Of a stretch of 64,000 nt of DNA, positions 1-64,000 are shown piece by piece. A model generated the notes under the pieces. It was not told the DNA's origin. It saw nothing but the letters and a program-made list of their open reading frames with translations, and searched no databases. The number at the start of each line of letters is the position of its first letter. The stretch's first letter is position 1. The position numbers and the translations under genes were made by a program. Source of the DNA: an uncultured Candidatus Saccharibacteria bacterium (GTDB lineage: Bacteria; Patescibacteriota; Minisyncoccia; Phycocordibacterales; WO2-35-19); the NCBI GenBank assembly GCA_964464975.1, contig CAYXKV010000001.1, positions 457 through 64,456 of the forward strand. The letters run 5' to 3'.

Positions 1-2862
1 GATAAAGCAGAGAATAAAGATAACTACTATACGCTTGTAGAATTTCCTTATCCGTCCGGAAATCTACATATTGGGCACTGGTACGCCTTTGCCGTGCCGG
101 ATATTTTTGCCCGAATGAAGAGAATGCAGGGTTACAACGTCCTATTTCCAATAGGTTTCGACGCTTTCGGACTACCGGCTGAAAATGCCGCCATCAAGCA
201 CGGCCTTGATCCAAAAAAATGGACTTATGAAAACATCGCCCATATGGAGAAACAGCTCCAGAGCATGGGAAACTCTTTTGATTGGTCGCGCAAAGTAATT
301 ACCTCGGATCCAGAGTATTACAAGTGGACACAGTGGCTCTTCCTCAAGTTTTATGAAAAGGGGCTAGCATATAAAAAGAAGGCATCGGTCAACTGGTGCC
401 CCAAAGACCAGACTGTTCTCGCAAACGAGCAAGTGGTTAGCGGTAAATGCGAAAGGTGTGGCACTGAAGTAGTGCAAAAGGATCTTGATCAGTGGTTTTT
501 CAAAATCACTGATTATGCGGAGCGCTTGCTCTCTGGCCTTGATAGCCTGAAATGGCCGGAGGCAATAAAGGAAGCCCAGAGAAATTGGATAGGGCGTTCT
601 GAAGGAGCAGAGATCAGTTTTAAGCTGATTTCAAGTAGCGAGCATCAAGTGACGAGCATCAAGGTGTTTACGACGAGGGCGGATACTTTGTTTGGGGCGA
701 CATATCTTGTATTGGCGCCAGAACATGAAATAATCTCAGAACTAAAAAATCAAAACGCAAAACAACATCTTAAAATTCAAAATTGGGAAGAAATAGAAAA
801 ATATGTTAAGAGCGTGAGAAACAAGTCTGATATCGAGAGGATTTCAGACACCAGAGAAAAAAGCGGAGTTGAATTGATAGGAGTAAGAGCGATTAATCCA
901 GCAACAGGGGAAGAAATTCCTGTCTGGGTTGCAGACTATGTTTTAGCAAGCTACGGCACTGGGGCGGTCATGGCCGTACCATCCCATGACGAGCGCGACT
1001 TCGAGTTTGCAAAAAAATTTGATTTGCCTATAAAGCAGGTGATAGCTCCTCATATAATTGACCTTGATAACCCACCTAAAGAAGGGAAGAGGTGTGCCCC
1101 AAGGATAGTGGTCCAGGGAATTGTAAGGCATTGGGAAAAAGATGAGGTCATACAAATTGTTTGGAAAAAATTCCCATGGAAGACATTTGTCATAGGCGGA
1201 GCCGAAGAAGGGGAAGACCTTGTTGAGGCGGTAAAAAGGGAAGTCAGGGAAGAAACAGGTTACAAAAATTTTAAAAATGTAAGGCCCCTTTCATATGAAA
1301 TGAGATCTGAGTGGTATGCAAGCCATAAGGACGAAAACAGATACGCCCACATGAATATGTTTGAAGTAATTCTCGCAGATGGAGAAAAAGAAGAGATTGA
1401 TCAAGAGGAAAAAGAAAAGCATGAAGTGGCGTGGGTGCCTTTCGCTTCAATACCAAAGAGCTACGCTCACGTAGGGGAACTAAAAGATATTTGGGAAGGA
1501 CTCAACATAGAGGATTATCCGAGATGTTTTCAGGGAGACGGCATACTCATAAGTTCTGGAGAATTTAGTGAAATGAAATCGGAAGTAGCAAGAGAAAAAA
1601 TTGCGGAGAAGTTCGGAAAGAAAGCAGTCAAATATAAATTGAGGGATTGGCTCTTGAGCCGCCAGAGGTATTGGGGGTGTCCCATACCGATAGTGTACGA
1701 TCCCGAAGACAAACCGCACGCAGTGCCGGAGGATTATCTTCCGTGGCTTTTACCTCAAGATGTAAAAGATTTTGCACCCAAAGGGGAGTCGCCTATCGCA
1801 ACTTCGCTAGAGTTCAAAGAGAGGACAGAGAGAATTTTTGGAAATGGCTGGAAGCCGGAGTATGATACCATGGACACTTTCGTAGACTCCTCATGGTACT
1901 TCCTTCGATATTGCGATCCTCACAACAACAAAGTGCCCTTCGACAAGCTCAGGGCAGTAAACTGGATGCCGGTCAAGAGATATTCGGGCGGAGCGGAACA
2001 CACTACCATGCATCTTCTCTATTCCAGATTTTTTCACAAGGCTCTTTTCGACATAGGCCTTGTCAGTGAGCCGGAACCTTTTGCAGAGAGGATGAATCGC
2101 GGGCTTATTCTCGGCCCCGACGGGCATAAAATGAGTAAGAGCAAAGGCAACGTCATCGATCCGGATGAATGGGTGAGGAAAGTAGGGGCGGATACTGTGA
2201 GGACTTACCTTGCATTCATCGGACCTTTCAATGAGGTGGGGCAGTATCCGTGGGATTTGGGCGGAATTGCAGGTGTACGCAGATTCTTGGAAAAAATTTG
2301 GAGAATCAGCTTAGAGCTTGAAGCTAAAAGCTTAGAGGAAAAAACAAACGGAAAAAACCTCCAAGCTAGAAGCTCCGAGCTAGAAGCTTTGTTGCACAAA
2401 ACAATAAAAAAAGTTACCGAAGATATTGAGACTTTTAAATTCAATACGGCAATTTCATCTATGATGATTTTCGTAAACGAACTTGAAAAAAATATTATAC
2501 CACACGAAAAAAGCCAAGGGTTCCCCTTGGCAATGGAGGAGATGGGGATGTTTTTGAGGATACTTGCACCTTTCGCTCCGCATATGACGGAAGAGATCTG
2601 GTCTAAAAATTTTGGATACAAAATTTCAATTCACCTTGAACCTTGGCCTGAGTATAACGCAACAAAGATTTTGGATGAAAAAATTACAATAGTTGTACAA
2701 GTGAACGGCAAAGTCAGAGCGAGCTTCAAGGCAGAAGTGGGAATTTCGGAAAAGGAGGCGCGTGAAGTCGCCCTTGAAATGCCAGAGGTCAGTAAGTGGC
2801 TAATTAAAGCCATAAAAAGGGTGATATTTGTGAAAGACAAGGTCATTAATTTTATAGTTTAG
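1..2862 (+). CDS. leuS: Leucyl-tRNA synthetase, 5'-truncated at the window edge, carrying an internal Nudix-domain insertion
   Basis: Frame 1 is open from nt 1. The HIGH motif (FPYPSGNLHIGHW) is at the window start. The editing domain (TTRADTLFGATYLVLAPEH, VMAVPSHDERDFEFA), KMSKS (HKMSKSKGN) and the zinc knuckle (CPKDQ...CERCG) are all present. Confidence 0.9.
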   Translation, partial: DKAENKDNYYTLVEFPYPSGNLHIGHWYAFAVPDIFARMKRMQGYNVLFPIGFDAFGLPAENAAIKHGLDPKKWTYENIAHMEKQLQSMGNSFDWSRKVITSDPEYYKWTQWLFLKFYEKGLAYKKKASVNWCPKDQTVLANEQVVSGKCERCGTEVVQKDLDQWFFKITDYAERLLSGLDSLKWPEAIKEAQRNWIGRSEGAEISFKLISSSEHQVTSIKVFTTRADTLFGATYLVLAPEHEIISELKNQNAKQHLKIQNWEEIEKYVKSVRNKSDIERISDTREKSGVELIGVRAINPATGEEIPVWVADYVLASYGTGAVMAVPSHDERDFEFAKKFDLPIKQVIAPHIIDLDNPPKEGKRCAPRIVVQGIVRHWEKDEVIQIVWKKFPWKTFVIGGAEEGEDLVEAVKREVREETGYKNFKNVRPLSYEMRSEWYASHKDENRYAHMNMFEVILADGEKEEIDQEEKEKHEVAWVPFASIPKSYAHVGELKDIWEGLNIEDYPRCFQGDGILISSGEFSEMKSEVAREKIAEKFGKKAVKYKLRDWLLSRQRYWGCPIPIVYDPEDKPHAVPEDYLPWLLPQDVKDFAPKGESPIATSLEFKERTERIFGNGWKPEYDTMDTFVDSSWYFLRYCDPHNNKVPFDKLRAVNWMPVKRYSGGAEHTTMHLLYSRFFHKALFDIGLVSEPEPFAERMNRGLILGPDGHKMSKSKGNVIDPDEWVRKVGADTVRTYLAFIGPFNEVGQYPWDLGGIAGVRRFLEKIWRISLELEAKSLEEKTNGKNLQARSSELEALLHKTIKKVTEDIETFKFNTAISSMMIFVNELEKNIIPHEKSQGFPLAMEEMGMFLRILAPFAPHMTEEIWSKNFGYKISIHLEPWPEYNATKILDEKITIVVQVNGKVRASFKAEVGISEKEAREVALEMPEVSKWLIKAIKRVIFVKDKVINFIV

Positions 2863-4042: not shown

Positions 4043-5278
4043 ATGCTTGATTTTATTCCCGGCGAAATCTGGGACAGCTTCTGGCTTGCAGTCCGTTACA
4101 TCATCGTATATTTGCCCCTGTGGCTGCCCGTCGCATTTCTTTATGCGGCTTTTAATGCGTGGATAAATTACCGCCGCGAAGTCTTTTGGTCGAAGCAAAA
4201 TCCAGTTCTACTTGAAATAAAGCTACCGAGAGAAATCGCCAAATCGCCGGCGGCTATGGAGATAGTGCTGGGCGCTTTTTTCCAGACCGGCGGTGAAGGT
4301 ACCTGGATAGACAGGATCTGGAAAGGCCAGACAAGGGCGTGGTTTTCACTTGAGATCGTCTCCCAAGGAGGCAGGGTACGATTTTTCGTATGGACATGGA
4401 CCAAATTCAAAAACCTTATTGAGTCGCAGATTTACGCCCAGTACCCCGGGGTCGAGGTCTATGAAGCCGAGGATTATACCATTCCCGAATATTATCATCC
4501 GGAAAGGAAGGAGATCTGGGCTTGCCAATATGCCCTGACTCAGCCGGACCCGTATCCGATAAAGACATATATTGATTATGGGCTGGACAAGGACCCCAAG
4601 GAGGAATACAAGGTCGACCCTATGACTGCAACCATTGAGTTTCTGGGATCCATCACGGAAGGGCAAAATATATGGGTGCAGATACTGGTGCGGGCGCACA
4701 AGAAGAGGAGGTTTGCGGATATTTTCGGTGAAAAAGAGGATGTTTGGAAGGACGAAGCTAAAAAACAAAAGGATGAGATTATTGAGAAATTAAAAGTTAA
4801 AAAAGAAGAAGGTGGGTTTCCAAGAATTCCATCCAAAGGTGAAGCGGAGGTGATAGCGGCGCTTGAAAGAAGCATTACCAAATTGCCTTTTGACTGCACC
4901 ATCAGAGCCCTCTACATCACAGAGAAGGACAAGTTTAATTCGGCAAATATCGGCGGCATCACCGGAGCTTTCAAGCAGTACGGCTCGCTCAACTTAAACG
5001 GCTTCAGGCCTGCCGGATGGATGACCATCTTTGATTATCCGTGGCAGGAATGGTTCGGAGCGAAGGAGAAGCTCAAGCCGAAAGTTTTGGAGGAATACAA
5101 ATTAAGGAGGTTTTTCTTTTCTCCCTACAGAGGCAAAAAATTCTATTCCAAGCCGTTTGTTTTAAATACCGAAGAGCTTGCTACGATTTTCCACTTCCCC
5201 GGAGCAGTCGCTGCTACCCCGACTTTGGGAAGAGTGCCTTCCAAGAAATCCGAGGCTCCGGCAAACCTTCCAGTATAA
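4043..5278 (+). CDS. Hypothetical membrane protein with two N-terminal TM helices
   Basis: 411-aa ORF with good codon continuity. TGATATAAT lies 7 nt upstream of the ATG, suggesting a leaderless transcript. No recognisable family. Confidence 0.5.
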   Translation: MLDFIPGEIWDSFWLAVRYIIVYLPLWLPVAFLYAAFNAWINYRREVFWSKQNPVLLEIKLPREIAKSPAAMEIVLGAFFQTGGEGTWIDRIWKGQTRAWFSLEIVSQGGRVRFFVWTWTKFKNLIESQIYAQYPGVEVYEAEDYTIPEYYHPERKEIWACQYALTQPDPYPIKTYIDYGLDKDPKEEYKVDPMTATIEFLGSITEGQNIWVQILVRAHKKRRFADIFGEKEDVWKDEAKKQKDEIIEKLKVKKEEGGFPRIPSKGEAEVIAALERSITKLPFDCTIRALYITEKDKFNSANIGGITGAFKQYGSLNLNGFRPAGWMTIFDYPWQEWFGAKEKLKPKVLEEYKLRRFFFSPYRGKKFYSKPFVLNTEELATIFHFPGAVAATPTLGRVPSKKSEAPANLPV

Positions 5279-5282
5279 ACAT

Positions 5283-6374
5283 ATGATTGACAGACTTAGG
5301 CGATACATAGAGCGCTTTGTGGGGCTTCTGATGCGTAGCAAAATTGCGGAACGATTTGTCCCGAAGTATTCAAAACTAAATATTAGGCTTTTCGTAAACA
5401 AATCGCATTTTATAACCATCGATCTAGGCAGAGTGATTTCGATTTTACTTCCGATTATCTTTTTTTTGCTTCTGTTTTACGTGTCTATCTGGAAAGCTCC
5501 GAGTCCGTTCCCGGACCATGCGCTAGTAACGGTCGAGCGGGGCGAATCGCTCGGAAACATTGCGAAATCTTTTAAAGAGAAGAGAGTGGTCAAAAGCGAC
5601 CTTTGGCTTCGAGCCCTCATCATCCTCATGGGAGGAGAAAAAAAAGTCATTGCCGGGGATTATTATTTTCCCGAACCGAAAAATGTTTTTCGCGTCGCTT
5701 ACATGCTCCACAGCGGTAACTTTGGTCTGATACCGGAGAGATTTACCATTCCCGAAGGGCTTTCTTCTTACGAGATAGCCAAAATCCTAAAGGACAGGCT
5801 ACCCTCGTTTGATGAAGAAGCTTTCGTAAGCGAAGTTCAAAGTAGTAAGAGCGAAGGATATCTTTTCCCGGACACATACTTTTTTATGCCAAACATCAAA
5901 TCAAGCGACGTGATTCTCACTATGCGAGAGAATTTCGCCCGGCAGATCAAGACATATGAAGCCGATATAGAAAAATTTGGCAAGACTTTAGACGAAGTGG
6001 TCATCATGGCCTCCATAATCGAGGATGAAGCGAACGGCACTCTCGAATCAAAGCGCATCGTTTCCGGAATATTATGGAAGCGGCTGCGGCAGGATATGCC
6101 TCTTCAGGTTGACGCGCCATTCATCTACTACAACGGTAAAAATTCTTACACTTTAACAAAAAATGATCTGGGGGAGGATCATGAATACAACACCTATGTC
6201 CGCAAAGGGCTCCCCCCGACGGCTATCACCAATCCGAGCATTGATTCCATCCGAGCGGCCGTCGCCCCGACCAATAACGATTACCTATACTTCCTTTCCG
6301 ATAAGAAAGGCAACCTCTATTACGCGAGAACTTTCGAGGAACATAAACTGAACAGGGAGAGATACCTAAATTAG
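5283..6374 (+). CDS. mltG: Endolytic murein transglycosylase MltG/YceG family
   Basis: Single N-terminal TM followed by a YceG-like domain (GLPPTAITNPS, YLYFLSD, EEHKLNRERY). The start is placed at the ATG after the upstream stop rather than the ORF-track start at 5178. Confidence 0.8.
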   Translation: MIDRLRRYIERFVGLLMRSKIAERFVPKYSKLNIRLFVNKSHFITIDLGRVISILLPIIFFLLLFYVSIWKAPSPFPDHALVTVERGESLGNIAKSFKEKRVVKSDLWLRALIILMGGEKKVIAGDYYFPEPKNVFRVAYMLHSGNFGLIPERFTIPEGLSSYEIAKILKDRLPSFDEEAFVSEVQSSKSEGYLFPDTYFFMPNIKSSDVILTMRENFARQIKTYEADIEKFGKTLDEVVIMASIIEDEANGTLESKRIVSGILWKRLRQDMPLQVDAPFIYYNGKNSYTLTKNDLGEDHEYNTYVRKGLPPTAITNPSIDSIRAAVAPTNNDYLYFLSDKKGNLYYARTFEEHKLNRERYLN

Positions 6375-6506
6375 TTATAAAGTTATAAAGGCAAAAGTTT
6401 TTAAAGATAAGAAAAGACCGGACCAACGAGGATCCGGCTATGAGTGCCTGACTTACTCAGACTAGTTTTCTTGCAGAGATTTATTTTTTATAATAACCTG
6501 GGCTCT

Positions 6507-27928: not shown

Positions 27929-28879
27929 ATGTTAATGAAAAGACCTGAAACGCTTTACAAAGTAATGTCCTTTTGCAGGAAAGAGGGATATTTTAGGGAG
28001 ATAAAGAATGAGGATTCAGAGCCCGAGGCGGTAAGATTCGAACACAAAAACATAAAGTCCACGGGCCTCGGCGTATTGGACGCAGTCAGGTGTATTCAGG
28101 ATATAAACAGGACAAATTTTTTTCTAAGCGAAATAAAAAAACTAATAAAGAAAGGTGACGAGGTGCTCGAAGCAGGCGTTGGTACAGGTATTCTGTCTTT
28201 TGCAGCCGCAGAACAAGGCGCTCAAGTTTTAGGGATCGAACTCAATAAGGCAATACTAAAACTTGCAAAAAAAATAAAAGATAGCAAGAATCTGAGCTTT
28301 TTAAAAAATTCTACGCACTTCTTGCACAAAAACGCCCTGAAATTTAAGCCGGATCAAAAATTCGATTTCATAATATCAGAAAACATTTATACTGGGATGC
28401 TTTACGAGAAGCAGGTCCAGATAATGAATCATCTTCTGCAATTTTTGAAGCGAGGCGGAAAGGTTTTGCCAAGCGAATTGCTATCCTACATATCATTGTG
28501 CGAAGTTCATACTTCCTTGTTGCAAAAAAAGCTTCCCTTGATTGTGGTAAGCGACATAAAGGACAAAAACCTCTACAAAAATCTTTCAGACGAAGCGTTA
28601 TACAGCCATTTGAAGTTTGACAGGAAAAACAAAGAATACTTAAACGAAACAAAAGTTGTAAAAATTTTGAGATCCGGGAATATAAACGGCCTCTATATTA
28701 CTGCGCAAATCAAAATGCCTTCCGGCAAAATGCTCTCCGGATCAAAGACATCTTTTTTTGGTAACGACATAATTATTCCTATAAAGTCGACAAAAAAAGT
28801 TAAAAAAGGTGATAAAATTACAATTAGGATTTCCTACAAACTCGGAGGAAGCCCCAAAAAAATCAAGATTTTAATATAA
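27929..28879 (+). CDS. Class I SAM-dependent methyltransferase with PRMT-like motifs
   Basis: Motif I VLEAGVGTGILSFAAAEQGA. Post-I motif VLGIE. A double-E-loop-like segment FDFIISENIYTGMLYEKQ resembles PRMT DIIISEWMGYxLLYESM. Confidence 0.55.
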   Translation: MLMKRPETLYKVMSFCRKEGYFREIKNEDSEPEAVRFEHKNIKSTGLGVLDAVRCIQDINRTNFFLSEIKKLIKKGDEVLEAGVGTGILSFAAAEQGAQVLGIELNKAILKLAKKIKDSKNLSFLKNSTHFLHKNALKFKPDQKFDFIISENIYTGMLYEKQVQIMNHLLQFLKRGGKVLPSELLSYISLCEVHTSLLQKKLPLIVVSDIKDKNLYKNLSDEALYSHLKFDRKNKEYLNETKVVKILRSGNINGLYITAQIKMPSGKMLSGSKTSFFGNDIIIPIKSTKKVKKGDKITIRISYKLGGSPKKIKILI

Positions 28880-30540
28880 TGCTTACATGTAATTTTGATC
28901 CACCTTTTTATTTTTTATTTTCGGAAAATATTCCGGGGCTGGTTTATTATTCTCATTTTTCGGCAATTCTGATCGGCCTTTCGCTTATTTTTTATCTTTT
29001 AATTAAGGCAAAAAAGGAGCTGACCACAAAAGCTCTTATTTTGATGCTTGTACCATTCAGTTTGTGGGTACTTTTTGATTCTGTCTTTTGGGCAAGCAAT
29101 AGAAGCGACATAATTATGTTTGTCTGGTCGCTCCAGATCTTGTTTGAGCCTATCACTTACCTAGGTGCCGTTTACCTCATGTATATATTATCAAAAAAAA
29201 TGGACATGCCTTTCCCTGGGAAACTGACCTTGGGAATAATTTTTTTGCCCTTAATTATTTTTAGCCCAACAAGGTATTTCTTACCTGCATTTGACATATC
29301 AAGCTGCTTAAGCGTGGAAACAATATGGTCGTATTACACCTATGTGATAGAGACCATCGCAATAATCTGGATAGCTATTTTTGCCATAAGGGAATACAGG
29401 AAGAGAACATCTTTCAAAGAGAGGGGCCAGATTTTGTTTATGTCTATCGGCCTCATTCTGTTTTTGCTTGCTTTTGCGTCAGGCAACATTATCGGCAGCC
29501 TTACTGGGGATTGGAACGTGGCTCAAATCGGTTTGATCGGTGCGCCGCTTCTTATGGGCTTCCTCTCTTATGCCGTATCGAGATTTCAGGCCTTCAATGT
29601 AAAACTTCTTTCAACAGAAATACTCGTGCTTATTTTGTGGATTGTGCTCTGTTCGGTGCTATTTGTGCAAAATATAGAAATTGCCAGAGTTATAGTTTCT
29701 TTTACCCTTATTGTATTTATTATAGCCGGCATACTTTTGGTAAAATCAGTTAGCCGTGAAGTTGAACAAAGGGAACGCATCGAAAAGCTGCTTGAAAAAC
29801 TTGAAATAGCAAACATGAGGCTCAAAGAGCTTGACCAGATGAAGTCCGAATTTCTATCGCTTGCGACCCACCAGATACGAAGCCCGCTTACGGCTATCAA
29901 AGGCTACGCCTCTATGCTTTTAGACGGCGACTACGGCGAGCTTCCGAAGGAAGCCAAAAATTCTGTGAACATCATCATGCGCTCTTGTCAAAACTTGGTA
30001 AATATTGTCAACGATTTCCTGAACATTTCGCGCATTGAGCAGGGCAGGATGGTTTATGACAAAAGCGTTTTCAACATAGGCGATCTGGTATCCGAAGTCA
30101 TAAACCAATACAAGCCCAATCTCGAGGACGCCAAGCTGTCCTTATCGGTAAACATTCCAGAAAGCCCTATTCCTATTGAGGCCGACAAAGACAAGCTCAA
30201 GCAGATAGTGGGCAATATCGTAGACAACGCTATCAAATACACTAAAAAGGGCGAGGTCAGGGTGTCCGTTTCGGAGTCGGGGAAGGAAGTGGTAATTGAA
30301 GTAAAAGATACAGGCATAGGCATCGAACCTTTTGAAATTGAAAACCTTTTCATGAAATTTTTTAGAACTCGCGAAGCCCATAGAAAAAACATTTCAGGGT
30401 CAGGATTGGGCCTTTATATAGCGAGAAAAATTGCCGAGGCCCATGGGGGCACCATAGAGGCTCACTCCGAGGGTATAGGCAAGGGTAGTACTTTCAAAAT
30501 TATTTTGCCCAAACTAAATACCCGCTTTGCGGGTATTTAG
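28879..30540 (+). CDS. Sensor histidine kinase with a multi-TM N-terminal sensor domain (orphan)
   Basis: HisKA H-box SEFLSLATHQIRSPLTAI. HATPase_c motifs (VDNAIKYT, DTGIGI, GSGLGL). ATG overlaps the upstream stop (TAATG). Confidence 0.75.
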   Translation: MLTCNFDPPFYFLFSENIPGLVYYSHFSAILIGLSLIFYLLIKAKKELTTKALILMLVPFSLWVLFDSVFWASNRSDIIMFVWSLQILFEPITYLGAVYLMYILSKKMDMPFPGKLTLGIIFLPLIIFSPTRYFLPAFDISSCLSVETIWSYYTYVIETIAIIWIAIFAIREYRKRTSFKERGQILFMSIGLILFLLAFASGNIIGSLTGDWNVAQIGLIGAPLLMGFLSYAVSRFQAFNVKLLSTEILVLILWIVLCSVLFVQNIEIARVIVSFTLIVFIIAGILLVKSVSREVEQRERIEKLLEKLEIANMRLKELDQMKSEFLSLATHQIRSPLTAIKGYASMLLDGDYGELPKEAKNSVNIIMRSCQNLVNIVNDFLNISRIEQGRMVYDKSVFNIGDLVSEVINQYKPNLEDAKLSLSVNIPESPIPIEADKDKLKQIVGNIVDNAIKYTKKGEVRVSVSESGKEVVIEVKDTGIGIEPFEIENLFMKFFRTREAHRKNISGSGLGLYIARKIAEAHGGTIEAHSEGIGKGSTFKIILPKLNTRFAGI

Positions 30541-31684: not shown

Positions 31685-32215
31685 ATGGTGGATAGGGAAA
31701 TCGAAAGCCGGTTCTCGGCTATATACGGCAAGGAGGCGGACGCTCTTTTCAGATATGTTTTGCTTAGAGTTTCCGACCGCGAAGAGGCTCTGGATATTAC
31801 TTCCGGTGTATTTGGCAAACTCTGGGAGCTTCTAACGGCAGGAGAGAAAATACGAGACCATAGAGCTTTCATTTTTACCGTTGCACGCAACAGGGTGATC
31901 GACTGGTACCGCAAACGCAGGCCTATCTCCCTAGATAAGCTCATGGAGCCGGACGAAAATGAAGATGGGCCGGCATTCCAGGTTCCTGATGATTCGGCAG
32001 ACGGCAAGATAGAGGCATTTTCAGAGGGAAAGCTGGTGCTCGAAGCCTTGTCCAAAGTCCCAAGAAGCCTCGGAGATACCCTTTACTTAAGATTCGTAGA
32101 AGGGCTTGAGATAGAAGAAATCGGGAAGATAATGGGTATCACGAGCAATGCCGTATCGATACGGATAAACAGGGGGATAGAGGAACTTAAAAAAATACTT
32201 AGAATAGAAAAATAA
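31685..32215 (+). CDS. ECF-type RNA polymerase sigma factor
   Basis: Region 2 (FIFTVARNRVIDWYRKRR) and region 4 (LYLRFVEGLEIEEIGKIMGITSNAVSIRINRG). Confidence 0.75.
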   Translation: MVDREIESRFSAIYGKEADALFRYVLLRVSDREEALDITSGVFGKLWELLTAGEKIRDHRAFIFTVARNRVIDWYRKRRPISLDKLMEPDENEDGPAFQVPDDSADGKIEAFSEGKLVLEALSKVPRSLGDTLYLRFVEGLEIEEIGKIMGITSNAVSIRINRGIEELKKILRIEK

Positions 32216-32223
32216 ATTTTGAG

Positions 32224-32910
32224 ATGGACGACAAATTTAAAAAAGGAATAGGAGAGATTAAAAAAATCAAACTTTCAAAAAGCGAAAAGGAGATGATTTT
32301 GATGCGGGTGATGAGGGCAGGCAGGAAAAGCAAGCCTTCTAGCCTTTATCCATTTTTCGGGTTTTGGCAATCGTTTAGCGCAAACCATCATATCTTCGCG
32401 TATGCGGTAACTCCGCTTGTTGTAATAGCCTTGATAGTAGGCACCTCATCGTACGGCGCCGAGGCTTCGCTCCCTGGCGACACCCTGTACCCGCTCAAAC
32501 TCAATTTGAACGAAGAGGTTCGGGGGCTTGTGAGCATGACTCCGGAAGGCAAGATTTCCTGGGAGGCTCAAAGGGCTGTGCGCAGGATCGAAGAAGCGGT
32601 CTCTCTTGCCTCAGACGGTAAACTGGACGAGGAAAGCTTTAAAGAGATCGAGAAGAATTTCGACAAGCATTTTGATAAAGTTGAGAATTCCTCTGGCAAG
32701 GCGGACGGAGCGACATCGACTGAAAAGGTGATTGAAATAAAGAAGGAGCTAGACAAAAAACTTGAAGAACAGGCAAAAAAACTCGGAGAGATAAGCGAGA
32801 AAGAGGATGACGGCAACAAAGAGAGAGCTAGAGCTCTGGAGAAGAAAATCAGAGAGAAAATAAAGGATAAGGAAGGGAAAGGAAGAGAGGATTCAAGTAA
32901 AGAAGATTGA
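32224..32910 (+). CDS. Putative anti-sigma factor / single-TM membrane protein with a charged C-terminal domain
   Basis: Directly downstream of the ECF sigma gene. One TM helix followed by an extracytoplasmic K/E-rich domain. Confidence 0.4.
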   Translation: MDDKFKKGIGEIKKIKLSKSEKEMILMRVMRAGRKSKPSSLYPFFGFWQSFSANHHIFAYAVTPLVVIALIVGTSSYGAEASLPGDTLYPLKLNLNEEVRGLVSMTPEGKISWEAQRAVRRIEEAVSLASDGKLDEESFKEIEKNFDKHFDKVENSSGKADGATSTEKVIEIKKELDKKLEEQAKKLGEISEKEDDGNKERARALEKKIREKIKDKEGKGREDSSKED

Positions 32911-32911
32911 A

Positions 32912-33076
32912 ATAAAAAAACGCTGCCCCTCTGGGGAGACTGCGCTTAAACCTCGGCTCTGGCCGGAGGAGTCACCTCGGCCAAGGTCTAAGCGAGTCTA
33001 CGACCCAGAGGGCGGTGCTTGCGGGAAGTCTGCACCCTATCCACCCCCCGCAAACTGATTAGCTTTTTCAGCTCTA
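32912..33076 (-). ncRNA. Unclassified ~165-nt GC-rich structured small RNA with its own promoter and intrinsic terminator
   Basis: On the minus strand, CTTGACA (33105-33111), a 17-nt spacer and TATACT (33082-33087) form a promoter. The body is strongly GC-rich and self-complementary. The 3' end is a hairpin ccccagagggg followed by UUUUUUU at 32913-32936. Confidence 0.4.
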
Positions 33077-33179
33077 ATAATAGTATAAACCCATCGAGCC
33101 GTCCTGTCAAGCCTCCAATCCACAGCTTATCGGAACCTCTTTTGTAGTGTTGGCTTATATGATTTTGTAAAATAAGCCT

Positions 33180-34814
33180 ATGACCCAAAAAGAGGCGCTT
33201 GATATTTTAAAGACTGGGAGGAATGTTTTCCTGACAGGTGCGGCTGGTAGCGGCAAAACCCATGTCATACGCGAATATATAAATTTTCTCAAAGGACTTG
33301 GGGCGAACATAGGAATCACCGCTTCGACCGGCATAGCCGCGACCCACATGGGCGGCATAACTATTCACTCCTGGTCAGGCATAGGCATAAGAGATTCTCT
33401 CAAAAAAGAAGAGATAACAGAGATTGCAGAAAAGCAGCACGTCAAACGGAAAGTCCGGGACGCTAAAGTGCTTCTGATCGACGAGATCTCGATGCTTCAC
33501 CATTTCCGGCTTGATATGGTTGATGTAGTGCTTAGGGAAATCAAAGGAGTAAGCGAGCCTTTTGGCGGTATGCAGGTTGTTTTGGTCGGAGATTTTTTTC
33601 AGTTGCCGCCTGTATTCAGGCGCGGAGAGAGAGGGGGGAGATTTGCGTACCACTCAAACGCCTGGAAAGATCTTTCCCCTAAGGTCTGCTACCTATCCGA
33701 ACAGCACAGGCAAAATGATGCTCAGTTTATCAATATTTTAAATTCCATAAGGCTCTCCAAATCGCCGGATGAAATTTTAAAATCCCTCCAAGTGAGGCTC
33801 GGTGTTAAGCCCCGCGACATCCACACCAGGCTATATTCGTTGAACAAGGACGTTGATTTTGAAAACGAAATCGAGCTTCAGAAAATCAAAGGTCCAGCCA
33901 CAGAGTTTCAAATGATGAGCCGCGGCAGGAAGAGTCTTGTCGAAGCACTCAAGAAAAGCTGTCTCGCCCCAGAAAATCTGCGATTGAAAGGGGGGGCTAA
34001 GGTGATGTTCGTTAAAAACAACTTTGAGGAAGGCTATGTGAACGGCACTATGGGCACAGTCGTAGAGTGCAGAAGCAAAAGCATAAAGGTAAGAACCACT
34101 TCGGGAGAGACTATAGACGTCGAGACAGCAAGCTGGGCCATTGAGGAGAACGGCAGAGTGCTCGCTGAGATCATACAATACCCTCTACGGCTCGCCTGGG
34201 CCATTACCATTCACAAGAGCCAGGGTATGTCTCTTGATTCGGCCCTTATTGATCTGTCAAATTCTTTTGAGAAAGGTATGGGCTATGTCGCCCTGTCGAG
34301 AGTGCGTTCGCTTGAAGGACTTTTTCTTAAGGATATCAATCCTAAAGCCCTTGAGGTCGACCCTGATGTGCAGACGGTGGATGTCAAATTCAGGGAAGAT
34401 TCAAGCGCCAATTCTTTCCATGTTAGGAACATGAGCAAAGAGAAACTGCGCAGACTTCATAGCGAATTTGAAAATAATGTAAGGGTCGAGAAGAAAGACA
34501 GGAAGCTAAGCACAGTGGAAGAAACCAAACTCATGCTCGACTCTGGCGCCAGCGTCAAAGATATCGCCAAGGCGCGCCGCCTCAAGCCGGGCACCATTAT
34601 CGAACATATAGAAGAAATCAAAAGAGAAGAGCCCGGATACAATATAAGAAACTTGCATCGCACCATCCCAGAGGCCAAGTTCAGGCAAATTTACAGCGCT
34701 TTCCGCAAGACCGGGATTTCGCCGGGTGGCGAGTATCGCCTGTCTCCGGTTAAGGAGCTTTTGGGCTCCAAGTACTCCTACGACGACCTCCGCCTAGTCC
34801 GGTTGTTTTTGTAG
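33180..34814 (+). CDS. PIF1-like ATP-dependent DNA helicase with a C-terminal HTH
   Basis: Walker A (GAAGSGKTH), Walker B (LLIDEISM), and the Pif1 signature GDFFQLPPV. Confidence 0.75.
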   Translation: MTQKEALDILKTGRNVFLTGAAGSGKTHVIREYINFLKGLGANIGITASTGIAATHMGGITIHSWSGIGIRDSLKKEEITEIAEKQHVKRKVRDAKVLLIDEISMLHHFRLDMVDVVLREIKGVSEPFGGMQVVLVGDFFQLPPVFRRGERGGRFAYHSNAWKDLSPKVCYLSEQHRQNDAQFINILNSIRLSKSPDEILKSLQVRLGVKPRDIHTRLYSLNKDVDFENEIELQKIKGPATEFQMMSRGRKSLVEALKKSCLAPENLRLKGGAKVMFVKNNFEEGYVNGTMGTVVECRSKSIKVRTTSGETIDVETASWAIEENGRVLAEIIQYPLRLAWAITIHKSQGMSLDSALIDLSNSFEKGMGYVALSRVRSLEGLFLKDINPKALEVDPDVQTVDVKFREDSSANSFHVRNMSKEKLRRLHSEFENNVRVEKKDRKLSTVEETKLMLDSGASVKDIAKARRLKPGTIIEHIEEIKREEPGYNIRNLHRTIPEAKFRQIYSAFRKTGISPGGEYRLSPVKELLGSKYSYDDLRLVRLFL

Positions 34815-49267: not shown

Positions 49268-49310
49268 TTATTTTATTTTTTAGTATTTAATTATCCGCTA
49301 AAATAAAAAC

Positions 49311-49568
49311 ATGGTAGATAAACTAAAAACACGATCGCGAGCGACCTCAGGAGGTTTTATACAGTTAGTTTTCATCGTTATCACAGCCCTTATCATACTC
49401 AAATACGCTTTTGAAGTTGATATAGTCGGTTTTTTGACCTCAGGCAAGGTCAAGGACTGGCTTGATAAATTATATGCCTTCGGTTTAGCAGGGTGGAATA
49501 AATATAAGGAAATCATCACAGCAGGGTGGACGTGGTGGTCTGATCTGTATAAAAAAATATTTAATTAG
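49311..49568 (+). CDS. Small hypothetical membrane protein
   Basis: 85-aa ORF with one TM; no family recognised. Confidence 0.3.
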   Translation: MVDKLKTRSRATSGGFIQLVFIVITALIILKYAFEVDIVGFLTSGKVKDWLDKLYAFGLAGWNKYKEIITAGWTWWSDLYKKIFN

Positions 49569-49735
49569 ATTTGCTGCAAGAAAAATTTTTATGGTGGGGA
49601 AGAAGTAGTTGTTTGAAGTAAAGCCTCCTCCGCCTTATTTTAACATAATTAGAGTTTCCAAAGATATATTGTGCGACGTTCATATAGTTTCTGGGCATAT
49701 ATATTACATTTAATTGATAGGTCTTGAAATAAACA

Positions 49736-62656: not shown

Positions 62657-62727
62657 CGCGGGTATAGTTTAGTGGCAGAATGCGACCTTCCCAAGGTTGA
62701 GACGGGGGTTCGATTCCCCCTACCCGC
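62657..62727 (+). tRNA. tRNA-Gly (anticodon CCC), no encoded CCA
   Basis: Acceptor gcgggta/tacccgc. Anticodon stem cgacc/ggttg with loop ttCCCaa. T-arm ggggg-ttcgatt-ccccc. Discriminator A. Confidence 0.8.
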
Positions 62728-64000
62728 ACATTGTAGAACTTTTTGAGTAAAATTTTTTAATATGTTCTTTGTTCGCAACATCTTTTTGAGGTTCTAACGT
62801 TTGGCGTATTTTCTTCTCTTCAGTGGACATTTTTTGAAGCACAATCAATGGCTCTTCCGTCTGGATGAAGATTTGTTTGTCTTTCAAAATATGTTCAGTC
62901 CCTAATGCTGTCAAAATTTGTCTTCTCTTTGCAATATCGCCATTTTGAAACTCCTCACGAGCCCTTTGAGCGAAAGTTAAAGTGCTTTCCAATCTGACGA
63001 GCCAGTCATCTATGCGCTTGTCGTCTCCGTTAAGCAATCCATTCAACGCTTGTTTCTTCTTAAGCAACTCCGTCTCCTTGATTTTATACATCTCATGGGA
63101 AATCCTATCTGCCAGCAAAAGCTCTGCAAATTTGTCCAGTTTTGCTACGCAATCCTCATACTGCTTCCTGTGATTGAAAATTAAGGCATTTCTATCGCCC
63201 TTCTCTCTTTCGTGTAGTAATTTCAATTCCTCAACTGCCCATTCGTGAAATTCTGGTGGAATCTGAAGTCTTGAAAGAAAGTCATCGATTTGCTTTTCCA
63301 GCACTCTAATTTCAACTGATTTTTCAACACAATTTGGATTTTTGCTCCCGCTACAACGATAGTATACATACTCGTGAACGTTGCCATTTTTTTGGTGTTT
63401 GAATTTTTGCTCTGCCGTTACGCGAGCACCACAGCCAGCACATCGCATAAGTCCCGTAAAAGAAAAAACATGAGCTTTCGGTCTCGGAATCCCTTTTCTA
63501 CCAAGAAGAAATTGAATTTTGTCATATTCACCTTTATCAATCATTGGCTTATGGCTTCCAACATACCATTCCCCACCATTTCGAGGGTACTGAAATTCTC
63601 CGTAATAAAATGGATTTGTGAAAATCGCGTAAAGATTTGTCTTTCCCATTGGTTTGCTTTTTCTTGTGCCACTCTCACGAGTGAATAAAAGCAAATCCTT
63701 TTCAGCTACTTTCAAAAGCTCTGGCACGGAATATTGACCCGTAAGCATTAAATCAAAAAGCTTTCTAACTTTAGGAAAACGCTCTGGGTCAGGAAAGATT
63801 GTTTCCATACCTTTTTCTCTAAGCTTAGAGTTCATATAACCCAACGGCGCCATACTTGGTCTAAATCCGCTTCTTGCTCTGTCTTTAAGCCCCCTCGTCA
63901 CATGCTTTGAAAGATCTCTGGAATATTGAGTTGCTACACCCCATTCAACACCAGCAATGACCGCATTATCATCTGGATACCAGTCCCTATCCGTTGCTTT
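62720..64000 (-). CDS. Large serine recombinase (integrase), 5'-partial: the N-terminal catalytic domain lies beyond the window
   Basis: Recombinase domain plus zinc ribbon (CAGCGARV...YYRCSG) plus coiled coil. The frame stays open upstream to nt 64000. The stop codon overlaps the tRNA-Gly 3' end. Confidence 0.8.
   Translation of the reverse strand, partial: KATDRDWYPDDNAVIAGVEWGVATQYSRDLSKHVTRGLKDRARSGFRPSMAPLGYMNSKLREKGMETIFPDPERFPKVRKLFDLMLTGQYSVPELLKVAEKDLLLFTRESGTRKSKPMGKTNLYAIFTNPFYYGEFQYPRNGGEWYVGSHKPMIDKGEYDKIQFLLGRKGIPRPKAHVFSFTGLMRCAGCGARVTAEQKFKHQKNGNVHEYVYYRCSGSKNPNCVEKSVEIRVLEKQIDDFLSRLQIPPEFHEWAVEELKLLHEREKGDRNALIFNHRKQYEDCVAKLDKFAELLLADRISHEMYKIKETELLKKKQALNGLLNGDDKRIDDWLVRLESTLTFAQRAREEFQNGDIAKRRQILTALGTEHILKDKQIFIQTEEPLIVLQKMSTEEKKIRQTLEPQKDVANKEHIKKFYSKSSTMCG

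What the first reader, a model, noticed from the sequence alone, without database searches (positions are those of the whole stretch)
32912..33111. Independent ~165-nt GC-rich small RNA of unknown class on the minus strand
Seen in sequence: a near-consensus promoter (TTGACA, 17-nt spacer, TATACT). A highly self-complementary GC-rich body in an AT-rich genome. A canonical intrinsic terminator (ccccagagggg + U7). All on the strand opposite both neighbouring genes. The 5' part (GCGGGGGGUGG...CUUCCCGCAAG) superficially recalls 4.5S/SRP RNA termini. However, the helix-8 GGAA/AGCAG motif is absent, as are the RNase P and tmRNA hallmarks. It could be a lineage-specific sRNA, a 6S-like RNA or a divergent SRP RNA.
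Basis: partly seen in the sequence, partly recalled or inferred. Interest (0 to 1): 0.6.

Follow-up and report, generated by a model that had tools for sequence, protein, structure and literature searches.

The report
Unclassified small RNA with CUCCUCC motif
This is very likely a real, self-contained small non-coding RNA gene in an uncultivated Patescibacteria (Zambryskibacteria-like) genome, with fast-evolving counterparts at the same spot in a few relatives that all keep a CUCCUCC motif; it matches no catalogued RNA family and its function is still a guess.

Summary
On the minus strand, a TTGACA-17-TATACT promoter (11 of 12 consensus positions) precedes a transcript of about 162 nt (33075 to 32914). 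The transcript has an AU-rich leader, a 13-bp hairpin, and an 86-nt hairpin that ends in GCAGCG plus U7. Its predicted fold is -80 kcal/mol (z = -5). It contains no ATG and lies antisense to both neighbouring genes.

It matches no Rfam 15 family, so SRP and 6S are rejected.

Eight other Zambryskibacteria-like contigs carry a counterpart with the same layout: a promoter, a leader, two hairpins and a terminator. Most lie between a histidine kinase gene and the PIF1 helicase gene. About 160 other helicase loci lack it.

Sequence similarity among the nine is weak. A model built without the window RNA does not recover it. Still, the stems keep pairing through compensatory changes. Eight of the nine carry the exact heptamer CUCCUCC at a hairpin apex, against a 2-6% chance per RNA.

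Best reading: a lineage-specific trans-acting sRNA whose C/U-rich apex pairs with purine-rich targets, like alpha-r14/NfeR1, 6C or RsaE.

Caveat: this genome hardly uses Shine-Dalgarno sequences, so simple ribosome-binding-site blocking is doubtful. No target was found.

The parts
33105..33110 (-). -35 box, TTGACA
   Evidence: TTGACA is also present in all eight counterparts.
33082..33087 (-). -10 box, TATACT, with a 17-nt spacer after the -35 box
   Evidence: (11 of 12 matches).
33056..33075 (-). Predicted 5' end (about 33075) and AU-rich, mostly unpaired leader AGAGCUGAAAAAGCUAAUCA
   Evidence: The start is inferred from its 7-nt distance to the -10 box. It is unpaired or only weakly paired in the predicted fold. 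The transcription start was not measured.
33017..33055 (-). Hairpin 1: a 13-bp stem (GUUUGCGGGGGGU / ACUUCCCGCAAGC, including 3 G-U pairs) with a 13-nt G-rich loop GGAUAGGGUGCAG
   Evidence: The outer UUGC...GCAA pairs are shared with L162 and L010 in the hand alignment.
32927..33012 (-). Hairpin 2: an 86-nt irregular hairpin. Base stem 33012-33004 / 32935-32927; middle stem AGACUCGCU / AGCGCAGUCU at 32999-32991 / 32946-32937; apex 32982-32961. It doubles as the terminator stem.
   Evidence: On the unsupervised alignment A1, the lower and middle stems show 9 of 21 pairs with changes on both sides. The covariation score is 0.388, against 0.236 when shuffled (0 of 500 shuffles as high).
32965..32971 (-). 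CUCCUCC motif at the apex of hairpin 2, within GGCCGAGGUGACUCCUCCGGCC. In this RNA it is about half paired with the adjacent GAGG.
   Evidence: The exact heptamer occurs in 8 of 9 members. The chance per RNA is 0.02-0.06 from dinucleotide shuffles. Mean unpaired probability is 0.50 here and 0.95 or more in L162, L088, L009, L163, L164 and L165. It appears as GGAGGAG on the + strand at 32965-32971.
32914..32926 (-). Spacer GCAGCG followed by a U7 tract: the 3' end of the transcript. It lies 3 nt from the stop codon of the convergent gene, which ends at 32910.

Best explanation
The region is an independent gene for a non-coding small RNA of about 160 nt.

Shown: a near-consensus sigma-70-type promoter, a two-hairpin fold, and a hairpin-plus-U-tract terminator. 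Counterparts with the same layout sit at the same genomic slot in several related Zambryskibacteria-like genomes. Their sequences have diverged almost beyond recognition, but the stems stay paired and a CUCCUCC heptamer stays at a hairpin apex.

Inferred: the RNA acts in trans. The C/U-rich apex serves as a seed that pairs with purine-rich (GGAGGAG-like) stretches of target mRNAs and so alters their translation or stability. The GC-rich hairpins give stability and terminate transcription. This is how C-rich-loop sRNAs work in other bacteria.

Because this genome almost never uses Shine-Dalgarno sequences, such purine-rich sites would be rare. The set of targets would then be small, not a general block on ribosome binding sites.
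For: - Promoter and terminator.
- Stable fold, z = -5.06.
- Non-coding: there is no ATG at all in the window, L162, L164 or L165 RNAs, and no conserved ORF.
- Strand: the promoter strand folds 3-20 kcal/mol better than the opposite strand in 8 of 9 members, and has more G-U pairs.
- Counterparts: L162, L009, L163, L164, L165, L010 and L017 lie directly upstream of, and divergent from, the PIF1 helicase gene. L088 is displaced from the helicase gene but, like L009, L163, L164, L010 and L017, is still convergent with the histidine kinase gene.
- Structure conservation: on the unsupervised alignment A1, 21 pairs are 87.9% paired, and 9 pairs change on both sides. The covariation score is 0.388, against 0.236 shuffled (0 of 500 shuffles as high) and 0.11-0.22 when partners are slid. 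In the hand alignment, 31 pairs are canonical in 192 of 192 cells, and 16 pairs show compensatory changes (this alignment was fitted by hand).
- Weak but non-random sequence links: window-L162 z = 4.9, window-L010 z = 5.0, L017-L009 z = 3.9, measured against block shuffles.
- Motif: CUCCUCC is exact in 8 of 9 members, with a 2-6% chance each. It sits in different hairpins in different subgroups and is unpaired (0.95 or more) in 6 members.
- Precedent: alpha-r14/NfeR1 sRNAs carry an ultraconserved CCUCCUCCC in hairpin loops whose stems vary freely, and they silence mRNAs by pairing. One of their targets is the histidine kinase gene ntrB (PMC10746234).
Against: - There is no expression data.
- No target was found. 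The longest complementarity in the 64 kb is a single 13-mer, about what chance predicts, and it involves hairpin 1, not the motif. GGAGGAG is not enriched (11 sites against 8.6 expected) and none lies at a gene start.
- GGAGG is not conserved at the kinase gene start in six member loci.
- Only 5 of 65 window genes have a Shine-Dalgarno-like motif, and many look leaderless. Many Parcubacteria 16S rRNAs are reported to lack the anti-Shine-Dalgarno sequence (PMC9297842). The classic mode of blocking ribosome binding sites is therefore unlikely to apply widely.
- In the window RNA itself the motif is half buried (unpaired probability 0.50).
- Common ancestry of the nine RNAs is not proven. nhmmer links only L009, L163, L164 and L165. 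A covariance model built without the window and L162 RNAs scores the window RNA at 4.6 bits, E = 6.8.
- The RNA is missing at this locus in about 160 related loci.
Confidence: 0.45

Rival explanations
1. The RNA works by binding a protein or the ribosome. The conserved CUCCUCC apex copies the CCUCC core of the 16S rRNA 3' tail. It would act as a decoy or docking site for a factor that recognises that sequence (for example Era or other KH-domain proteins, or bS21), or as a sponge, and would not pair with mRNAs.
For: The motif matches the anti-Shine-Dalgarno core, yet the genome barely uses Shine-Dalgarno sequences. Part of Parcubacteria is reported to have lost the 16S anti-Shine-Dalgarno motif (PMC9297842). 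The motif moves between hairpins while always staying at an apex, which fits a displayed recognition element. No mRNA target was found.
Against: No partner protein is known, and none is encoded in a conserved way next to the RNA apart from a kinase and a helicase. The GAUCA context that Era recognises in 16S rRNA (my own knowledge) is absent. A single short motif is a weak decoy compared with multi-site sponges such as CsrB. The 16S rRNA of this genome is not in the window, so whether it has lost its anti-Shine-Dalgarno sequence is unknown.
Confidence: 0.2
2. The element acts mainly in cis. The convergent + strand genes (sigma/anti-sigma here, a histidine kinase in relatives) have no terminator of their own. 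The long hairpin and the opposing promoter would then act as a transcriptional barrier, or as an antisense partner for read-through transcripts. This would insulate the helicase gene, or couple the level of the small RNA to kinase-operon transcription.
For: The transcript ends 3 nt from the stop codon of the convergent gene. On the + strand the hairpin has A7 before it but no U-run after it, so + strand read-through is plausible. The convergent arrangement with the kinase gene is kept in L009, L163, L164, L010, L017 and L088.
Against: A barrier needs neither a near-consensus promoter, nor a second hairpin, nor a conserved apical heptamer. The G-U pairs and the energy difference favour function on the minus strand. 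Relatives without the RNA place a DUF167 gene in the same slot and run kinase, DUF167 and helicase genes on one strand with no such element.
Confidence: 0.15
3. The element is a non-functional or decaying remnant: a chance promoter next to a large terminator hairpin, or the residue of a lost gene.
For: It is absent from most related loci. Its sequence turns over very fast: even the relative whose helicase is 76% identical has no nhmmer-detectable similarity.
Against: An 11 of 12 promoter and a U-tract terminator recur at the same slot in nine diverged genomes. The stems are maintained by compensatory changes. An exact heptamer recurs in 8 of 9 despite the turnover. The fold z-scores are -5.1 (window) and -6.6 (L088).
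Confidence: 0.08
4. The RNA is a highly divergent housekeeping RNA: 4.5S/SRP, 6S, or a fragment of tmRNA or RNase P RNA.
For: The evidence is thin: G+C richness in a lower-GC genome, a strong promoter, and a superficial resemblance of GCGGGGGGUGG...CCCGCAAGC to the ends of 4.5S RNA.
Against: There is no Rfam hit at E <= 10 for any of these families in the window RNA, nor at E <= 1 in six counterpart loci. The fold is two independent hairpins. The RNA is absent from most relatives at this locus, and its sequence is not conserved, unlike essential RNAs.
Confidence: 0.02

Closest known systems
alpha-r14 / NfeR1 ('cuckoo') sRNAs of alpha-proteobacteria
   Same: Both are stand-alone sRNAs made of hairpins. 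The stems differ freely in sequence, while the loops carry an ultraconserved C/U-rich heptamer or nonamer: CCUCCUCCC in alpha-r14, and CUCCUCC here. The longer form CCUCCUCC is in L162, L009 and L164, and the full alpha-r14 nonamer CCUCCUCCC is in L165. NfeR1 is Hfq-independent and acts by base pairing; its targets include a histidine kinase mRNA (PMC10746234).
   Different: alpha-r14 has three hairpins, each with the motif. This RNA has two hairpins and one motif. There is no Rfam match at E <= 10. The phylum is different (Patescibacteria). NfeR1 pairs with Shine-Dalgarno regions, but this genome is Shine-Dalgarno-poor. In the window copy the motif is half paired.
6C RNA of Actinobacteria, and RsaE/RoxS and RNAIII of Firmicutes (C-rich-loop sRNAs; from my own knowledge)
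   Same: All are GC-rich hairpins that present C-rich apical loops used as seeds against G-rich mRNA sites. They have their own promoter and an intrinsic terminator, and do not obviously depend on Hfq.
   Different: The motif differs (CCCC or UCCC, against CUCCUCC). There is no sequence or covariance-model similarity. The phyla differ, and their targets are Shine-Dalgarno regions.
Yfr1 of cyanobacteria (from my own knowledge)
   Same: Yfr1 is a small RNA with two hairpins and an ultraconserved ACUCCUCACAC element. The hairpin-2 loop of L009 contains ACUCCUUACAC.
   Different: In Yfr1 the motif lies between the hairpins, not at an apex, and the RNA is much shorter (about 60 nt). There is no Rfam match. 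The resemblance may be coincidental.
Bacterial small SRP (4.5S) RNA and 6S RNA
   Same: Size class, G+C richness and an independent promoter.
   Different: This RNA has no helix-8 GNAR tetraloop or conserved internal loops, no central bubble, and no Rfam match. It is not universally present in relatives.

Membership tests
Bacterial small SRP RNA (4.5S; Rfam Bacteria_small_SRP) | Helix 8 with a GNAR tetraloop and conserved symmetric and asymmetric internal loops; a match to the Rfam covariance model | tested here: not met
   cmscan found no SRP hit at the gathering threshold in 64 kb, or at E <= 10 in 32850-33200. The predicted fold has two separate hairpins and no such loop.
6S RNA | A single long rod with a large central bubble that mimics an open promoter; a match to the Rfam model | tested here: not met
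   No hit at E <= 10. The fold shows two independent hairpins.
tmRNA / RNase P RNA / Y RNA | A match to the respective Rfam models, and the characteristic size (about 350 nt for tmRNA and RNase P RNA) | tested here: not met
   No hits. The transcript is about 162 nt.
alpha-r14 / NfeR1 ('cuckoo') sRNA family | Three hairpins, each with the identical CCUCCUCCC motif in an unpaired region (PMC10746234) | tested here: not met
   There are two hairpins and one CUCCUCC motif (32971-32965), about 50% unpaired in the window RNA.
alpha-r14 / NfeR1 ('cuckoo') sRNA family | Sequence and structure match to the curated family model | tested here: not met
   At E <= 10, none of the five weak Rfam matches in the region is an alpha-r14 or other sRNA family. 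That Rfam holds an alpha-r14 model is from my memory.
alpha-r14 / NfeR1 ('cuckoo') sRNA family | Silences mRNAs by pairing of the motif with translation initiation regions | not testable with these tools
   Only 64 kb of the genome is available and no convincing target was found in it.
Trans-acting base-pairing sRNA (generic kind) | Its own promoter and a Rho-independent terminator, separate from the neighbouring genes | tested here: met
   The same holds in eight counterparts.
Trans-acting base-pairing sRNA (generic kind) | Non-coding | tested here: met
   There is no ATG in the window RNA and no conserved ORF across members.
Trans-acting base-pairing sRNA (generic kind) | A conserved, accessible seed region | tested here: inconclusive
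   CUCCUCC is conserved in 8 of 9 members and unpaired in 6, but only 0.50 unpaired in the window RNA.
Trans-acting base-pairing sRNA (generic kind) | Complementary target sites, conserved across the genomes that carry it | tested here: inconclusive
   None was found in the window or the fetched flanks. Whole genomes were not available.
Trans-acting base-pairing sRNA (generic kind) | Expressed as a discrete transcript | not testable with these tools
   No transcriptome data could be reached.

The most novel reading that the evidence does not exclude
Many genes in this lineage look leaderless or lack a Shine-Dalgarno sequence, and many Parcubacteria 16S rRNAs are reported to have lost the anti-Shine-Dalgarno tail. 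In that setting, a separately transcribed small RNA keeps an anti-Shine-Dalgarno-like CUCCUCC on display. It could act as a trans-encoded surrogate or decoy for the anti-Shine-Dalgarno sequence. It would then control the few remaining mRNAs that carry a Shine-Dalgarno sequence, or a ribosome-assembly or 3'-tail-binding factor. That would be a new kind of translational control, not an ordinary target-specific sRNA.
Probability: 0.1. Interest if true: 0.8.

Novelty: new member of a known kind. Interest (0 to 1): 0.45.

Why it matters
Almost nothing is known about regulatory RNAs in Patescibacteria (the candidate phyla radiation). These bacteria are uncultivated, have tiny genomes, and have no described Hfq- or ProQ-type RNA biology. 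My literature searches found no paper on their sRNAs.

This candidate is concrete. It has a clear promoter and terminator, relatives at the same genomic slot, and one sharply conserved heptamer, so it gives an entry point for study.

The motif is the core of the anti-Shine-Dalgarno sequence, yet it sits in a genome that seems to have given up Shine-Dalgarno-led initiation. That makes its partner a worthwhile question. If the RNA turns out to be an ordinary target-specific sRNA, it is a modest addition to the catalogue.

Tried and rejected
- nhmmer with the window RNA against the 80 genome loci held at that point gave no hit. Repeated later against all 174 loci plus the window, it found only the RNA itself and L161, the same genome, and not even L162. 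Sequence search alone would have called the RNA an orphan.
- Scans of species-representative genomes and of metagenomes with the helicase protein found no relative closer than 66%. The closest relative, at 76%, came from a protein search followed by a contig look-up.
- Covariance model R1, built from all 8 members then known, recovered only its own training sequences, plus a weak hit (E = 0.26) that led to L088. Nothing new turned up in the six extra loci.
- Model R2, built without the window and L162 RNAs, failed to find either of them. I did not build a third model, because MAFFT misaligned L162, L010 and L088.
- Target prediction with RNAduplex on 65 gene starts produced only spurious long-loop duplexes. 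Exact complementarity of 11-14 nt occurred at chance level.
- The idea that the RNA pairs with the neighbouring kinase gene start, as NfeR1 does with ntrB, found only a 7-8 bp match at -35 in the window. That match is not conserved in six member loci.
- Small-protein coding was rejected.
- A repeated or mobile element was rejected: the window holds a single copy. The other CUCCUCC sites checked in the window lie inside apparent coding sequence or in a probable terminator.
- A CRISPR-related reading was rejected. The CRISPR-DR47 hit (E = 0.49) lies on the + strand inside the Lys/Glu-rich 3' end of the anti-sigma-like gene.

Full report
**1. What is there**

Read on the minus strand, window 33110-32912 holds a complete small transcription unit:
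- The -35 box TTGACA is at 33110-33105. A 17-nt spacer separates it from the -10 box TATACT at 33087-33082.
- The probable start is near 33075.
- A 20-nt AU-rich leader follows.
- Hairpin 1 (33055-33017) has a 13-bp stem and a 13-nt G-rich loop.
- A 4-nt linker follows.
- Hairpin 2 (33012-32927) is 86 nt long and irregular.
- Then come GCAGCG and U7 (32920-32914).

The promoter scores 11 of 12 and is the best promoter-like site in 32000-34000. The RNA folds at -80.3 kcal/mol, against -58.3 +/- 4.4 for shuffles (z = -5.06; none of 200 shuffles folded as well). It is 58% G+C in a window that averages about 44%.

It is the 3' arm of the base stem of hairpin 2 (inverted repeat I3).

Both neighbours are on the + strand. 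An ECF sigma factor gene and a DUF5667 anti-sigma-like gene end at 32910. A PIF1-type helicase gene with an HTH_40 domain starts at 33180.

**2. What it is not**

- Rfam 15 finds only one tRNA in the whole 64 kb at gathering thresholds.
- At E <= 10 on the 351-nt region, it reports only miRNA-hairpin, CRISPR-repeat and archaeal sRNA chance hits. There is nothing for SRP, 6S, tmRNA, RNase P or Y RNA.
- Six related loci that carry a counterpart also give no match over the RNA.
- The RNA has no ATG at all.
- The window holds only one copy.

**3. Where it comes from and who else has it**

The helicase protein places the window in Patescibacteria, near Candidatus Zambryskibacteria. The same contig exists in a JGI metagenome.

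No close relative exists in the collections. Helicase identity is at most 66% in species-representative genomes and in metagenomes. One Logan contig reaches 76%.

nhmmer with the RNA found nothing. I therefore looked by position. Seven related contigs have, directly upstream of the helicase gene and on the opposite strand, the same unit: TTGACA-N16-18-TATAAT, an AU-rich leader, one hairpin, then a long hairpin that ends in a U-run. They are L162, L009, L163, L164, L165, L010 (identical to L097) and L017 (identical to L095).

A ninth member, L088, turned up through a weak covariance-model hit. It is separated from the helicase gene by two small ORFs, but it is still convergent with a histidine kinase gene.

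In L009, L163, L164, L010, L017 and L088 the convergent gene is a histidine kinase. In the window and L162, the sigma/anti-sigma pair sits next to the RNA in that position. The window's own kinase gene lies further upstream (28879-30540), beyond one more gene.

About 160 other helicase loci lack the RNA. Where gene calls were available, many of them have a DUF167 (PF02594) gene next to the helicase, in most cases in the same slot. L002 has a 49-codon ORF there instead.

The RNA is therefore patchy at this locus. Only 2.5-4 kb on each side of the helicase gene could be searched, so absence from those genomes is not shown.

**4. Are the nine RNAs one family?**

This is the weak point.
- By sequence, nhmmer connects only L009, L163, L164 and L165 to each other.
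- A covariance model built from the seven RNAs other than the window and L162 does not retrieve the window RNA. It scores 4.6 bits, E = 6.8, ranked 17th in the window.

Evidence for a relationship:
- The genomic slot and orientation are the same.
- The promoter type is the same.
- The architecture is the same.
- There are shared local words:
  - AGAC(UC)GCU...AGCG(CA)GUCU in the window and L162;
  - GGCG(C/U)UCU...AGA(G/A)CGCC in L010, L017 and the L009 group;
  - CAGCAGGCGGCUUU(U)CUUUU in L010 and L088.
- Global-alignment scores stand out against shuffles that preserve local composition: window-L162 z = 4.9, window-L010 z = 5.0, window-L088 z = 3.3, L010-L088 z = 3.6, L017-L009 z = 3.9.

I treat the nine as one fast-evolving family with two subgroups: window/L162/L010/L088, and L017 plus the L009 group. 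Convergent origin of some members is not excluded.

**5. Structure support**

- On the unsupervised MAFFT alignment A1, RNAalifold recovers the lower and middle stems of hairpin 2 (21 pairs).
- Of the cells, 87.9% are paired, against 78.5% when shuffled. Nine pairs change on both sides. The covariation score is 0.388, against 0.236 when shuffled (0 of 500 shuffles as high) and 0.11-0.22 when the partners are slid.
- MAFFT misaligns hairpin 1. In an alignment fitted by hand, the outer stem of hairpin 1 and the base and middle stems of hairpin 2 (31 pairs) are canonical in all 192 cells. Sixteen pairs show changes on both sides. Because I fitted this alignment to the structure, it shows consistency but is not an independent test.
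- With eight or nine related sequences, none of this reaches the power of an R-scape test.
- The promoter strand folds better than its complement in 8 of 9 members, by 3-20 kcal/mol, and has more G-U pairs. This agrees with the direction of the promoter and the U-tract.

**6. The conserved motif**

- Despite the sequence turnover, the exact heptamer CUCCUCC occurs in 8 of 9 RNAs. L017 has CUCCUU.
- The chance per RNA, from dinucleotide shuffles, is 0.02-0.06.
- The motif always sits at a hairpin apex. In the window, L162, L010 and L088 that is the apex of hairpin 2. In L009, L163, L164 and L165 it is the apical loop of hairpin 1.
- It is predicted to be unpaired (0.95 or more) in six members, and partly paired in the window (0.50), L010 (0.58) and L017 (0.70).
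- A motif that stays while its scaffold changes is the signature of a functional recognition element.

**7. How it most likely works**

The closest described precedent is the alpha-r14/NfeR1 family. Those sRNAs have hairpins with freely varying stems, each carrying an ultraconserved CCUCCUCCC in an unpaired region. They silence mRNAs by pairing, and one target is the kinase gene ntrB (PMC10746234). From my own knowledge, 6C RNA, RsaE/RoxS and RNAIII use C-rich loops in the same way.

I therefore favour a trans-acting, base-pairing sRNA whose CUCCUCC apex is the seed (confidence about 0.45).

What is shown:
- a gene-like unit;
- conserved architecture;
- a conserved motif.

What is inferred:
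- that the RNA is transcribed;
- that it acts in trans;
- that it works by pairing.

**8. The complication**

- In this window only 5 of 65 predicted genes have a Shine-Dalgarno-like motif upstream, which is at or below chance.
- In 21 of the 65, a -10-like box lies 4-9 nt before the start codon, which points to leaderless mRNAs. Gene starts in L162-L165 look the same.
- A general ribosome-binding-site-blocking role is therefore unlikely here.
- In the 64 kb, GGAGGAG is not enriched (11 sites against 8.6 expected), and no site lies at a gene start.
- A 7-8 bp match 35 nt upstream of the window's kinase gene is not conserved in other carriers.

So either the RNA pairs with a few rare purine-rich sites elsewhere in the genome, or the motif is read by a protein or the ribosome (rival, 0.2). 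The cis-acting reading, as a barrier or antisense partner for the convergent operon (0.15), and the remnant reading (0.08) fit the data less well. Neither explains the near-consensus promoter or the conserved heptamer.

**9. Verdict**

This is a real feature and a plausible new sRNA family, limited to a few Zambryskibacteria-like lineages. It is not in Rfam 15. It works most like the known C-rich-loop sRNAs, but it is not a member of any of them.

I rate it a new member of a known kind, with interest 0.45. The score would rise only if the anti-Shine-Dalgarno-like motif proves to have a role tied to the Shine-Dalgarno-less translation of this lineage (probability about 0.1).

Noticed in passing
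Whole window (gene starts). Examples: 4042, 25689, 35924, 39368, 40838, 44203, 46614.: Genes almost never have a Shine-Dalgarno motif (5 of 65). In 21 of 65, a TAnn[AT]T box lies 4-9 nt before the start codon, which suggests widespread leaderless mRNAs. The PIF1 helicase gene in relatives has a conserved TTGAAA-N17-TACAAT-N7-ATG arrangement.
   Followed up: partly
L162 3785-4125 (+): The closest relative has a second unclassified unit downstream of the helicase gene. It has a TTGACA-N16-TATCAT promoter, about 310 nt of GC-rich structured sequence, and a terminator just before the gene at 4155. There is no Rfam hit at E <= 1. It contains GGUGACUCCUCGG and CCGAGGUGAGUCC, words that resemble the apex of the window RNA. 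It is absent from the window.
   Followed up: no
L169 3255-3476, L167 626-841, L171 73-330, L172 3118-3366; L002 about 1900-2200 (-): In these relatives without the RNA, the slot just upstream of the helicase gene holds a small DUF167/PF02594 (YggU-like) gene on the + strand. A histidine kinase gene is seen directly before it only in L169. L002 instead has a 49-codon minus-strand ORF with its own promoter and terminator. This slot appears to swap small genes.
   Followed up: partly
window 5279-6442: More than 1 kb contains no long ORF on either strand. The minus strand reads like coding sequence broken by frame changes, so it may be a pseudogene or an assembly problem.
   Followed up: no
window 49596-49646 (+): GGUGGGG...CCUCCUCCGCC followed by a U-rich run lies right after the gene at 49310-49568. 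It is probably that gene's terminator. It is another intergenic CCUCCUCC, but without the sRNA layout.
   Followed up: no
window 33111-33126 and L162 about 2000-2015 (minus strand): The window and L162 share UGUGGAUUGnAnGC immediately upstream of the -35 box, although the RNA bodies have diverged. It could be an UP element or a regulator-binding site.
   Followed up: no
window 62658-62728 (+): This is the only Rfam hit in the window: a tRNA gene at 67.9 bits. The anticodon loop reads UUCCCAA, so it is probably Gly(CCC).
   Followed up: no
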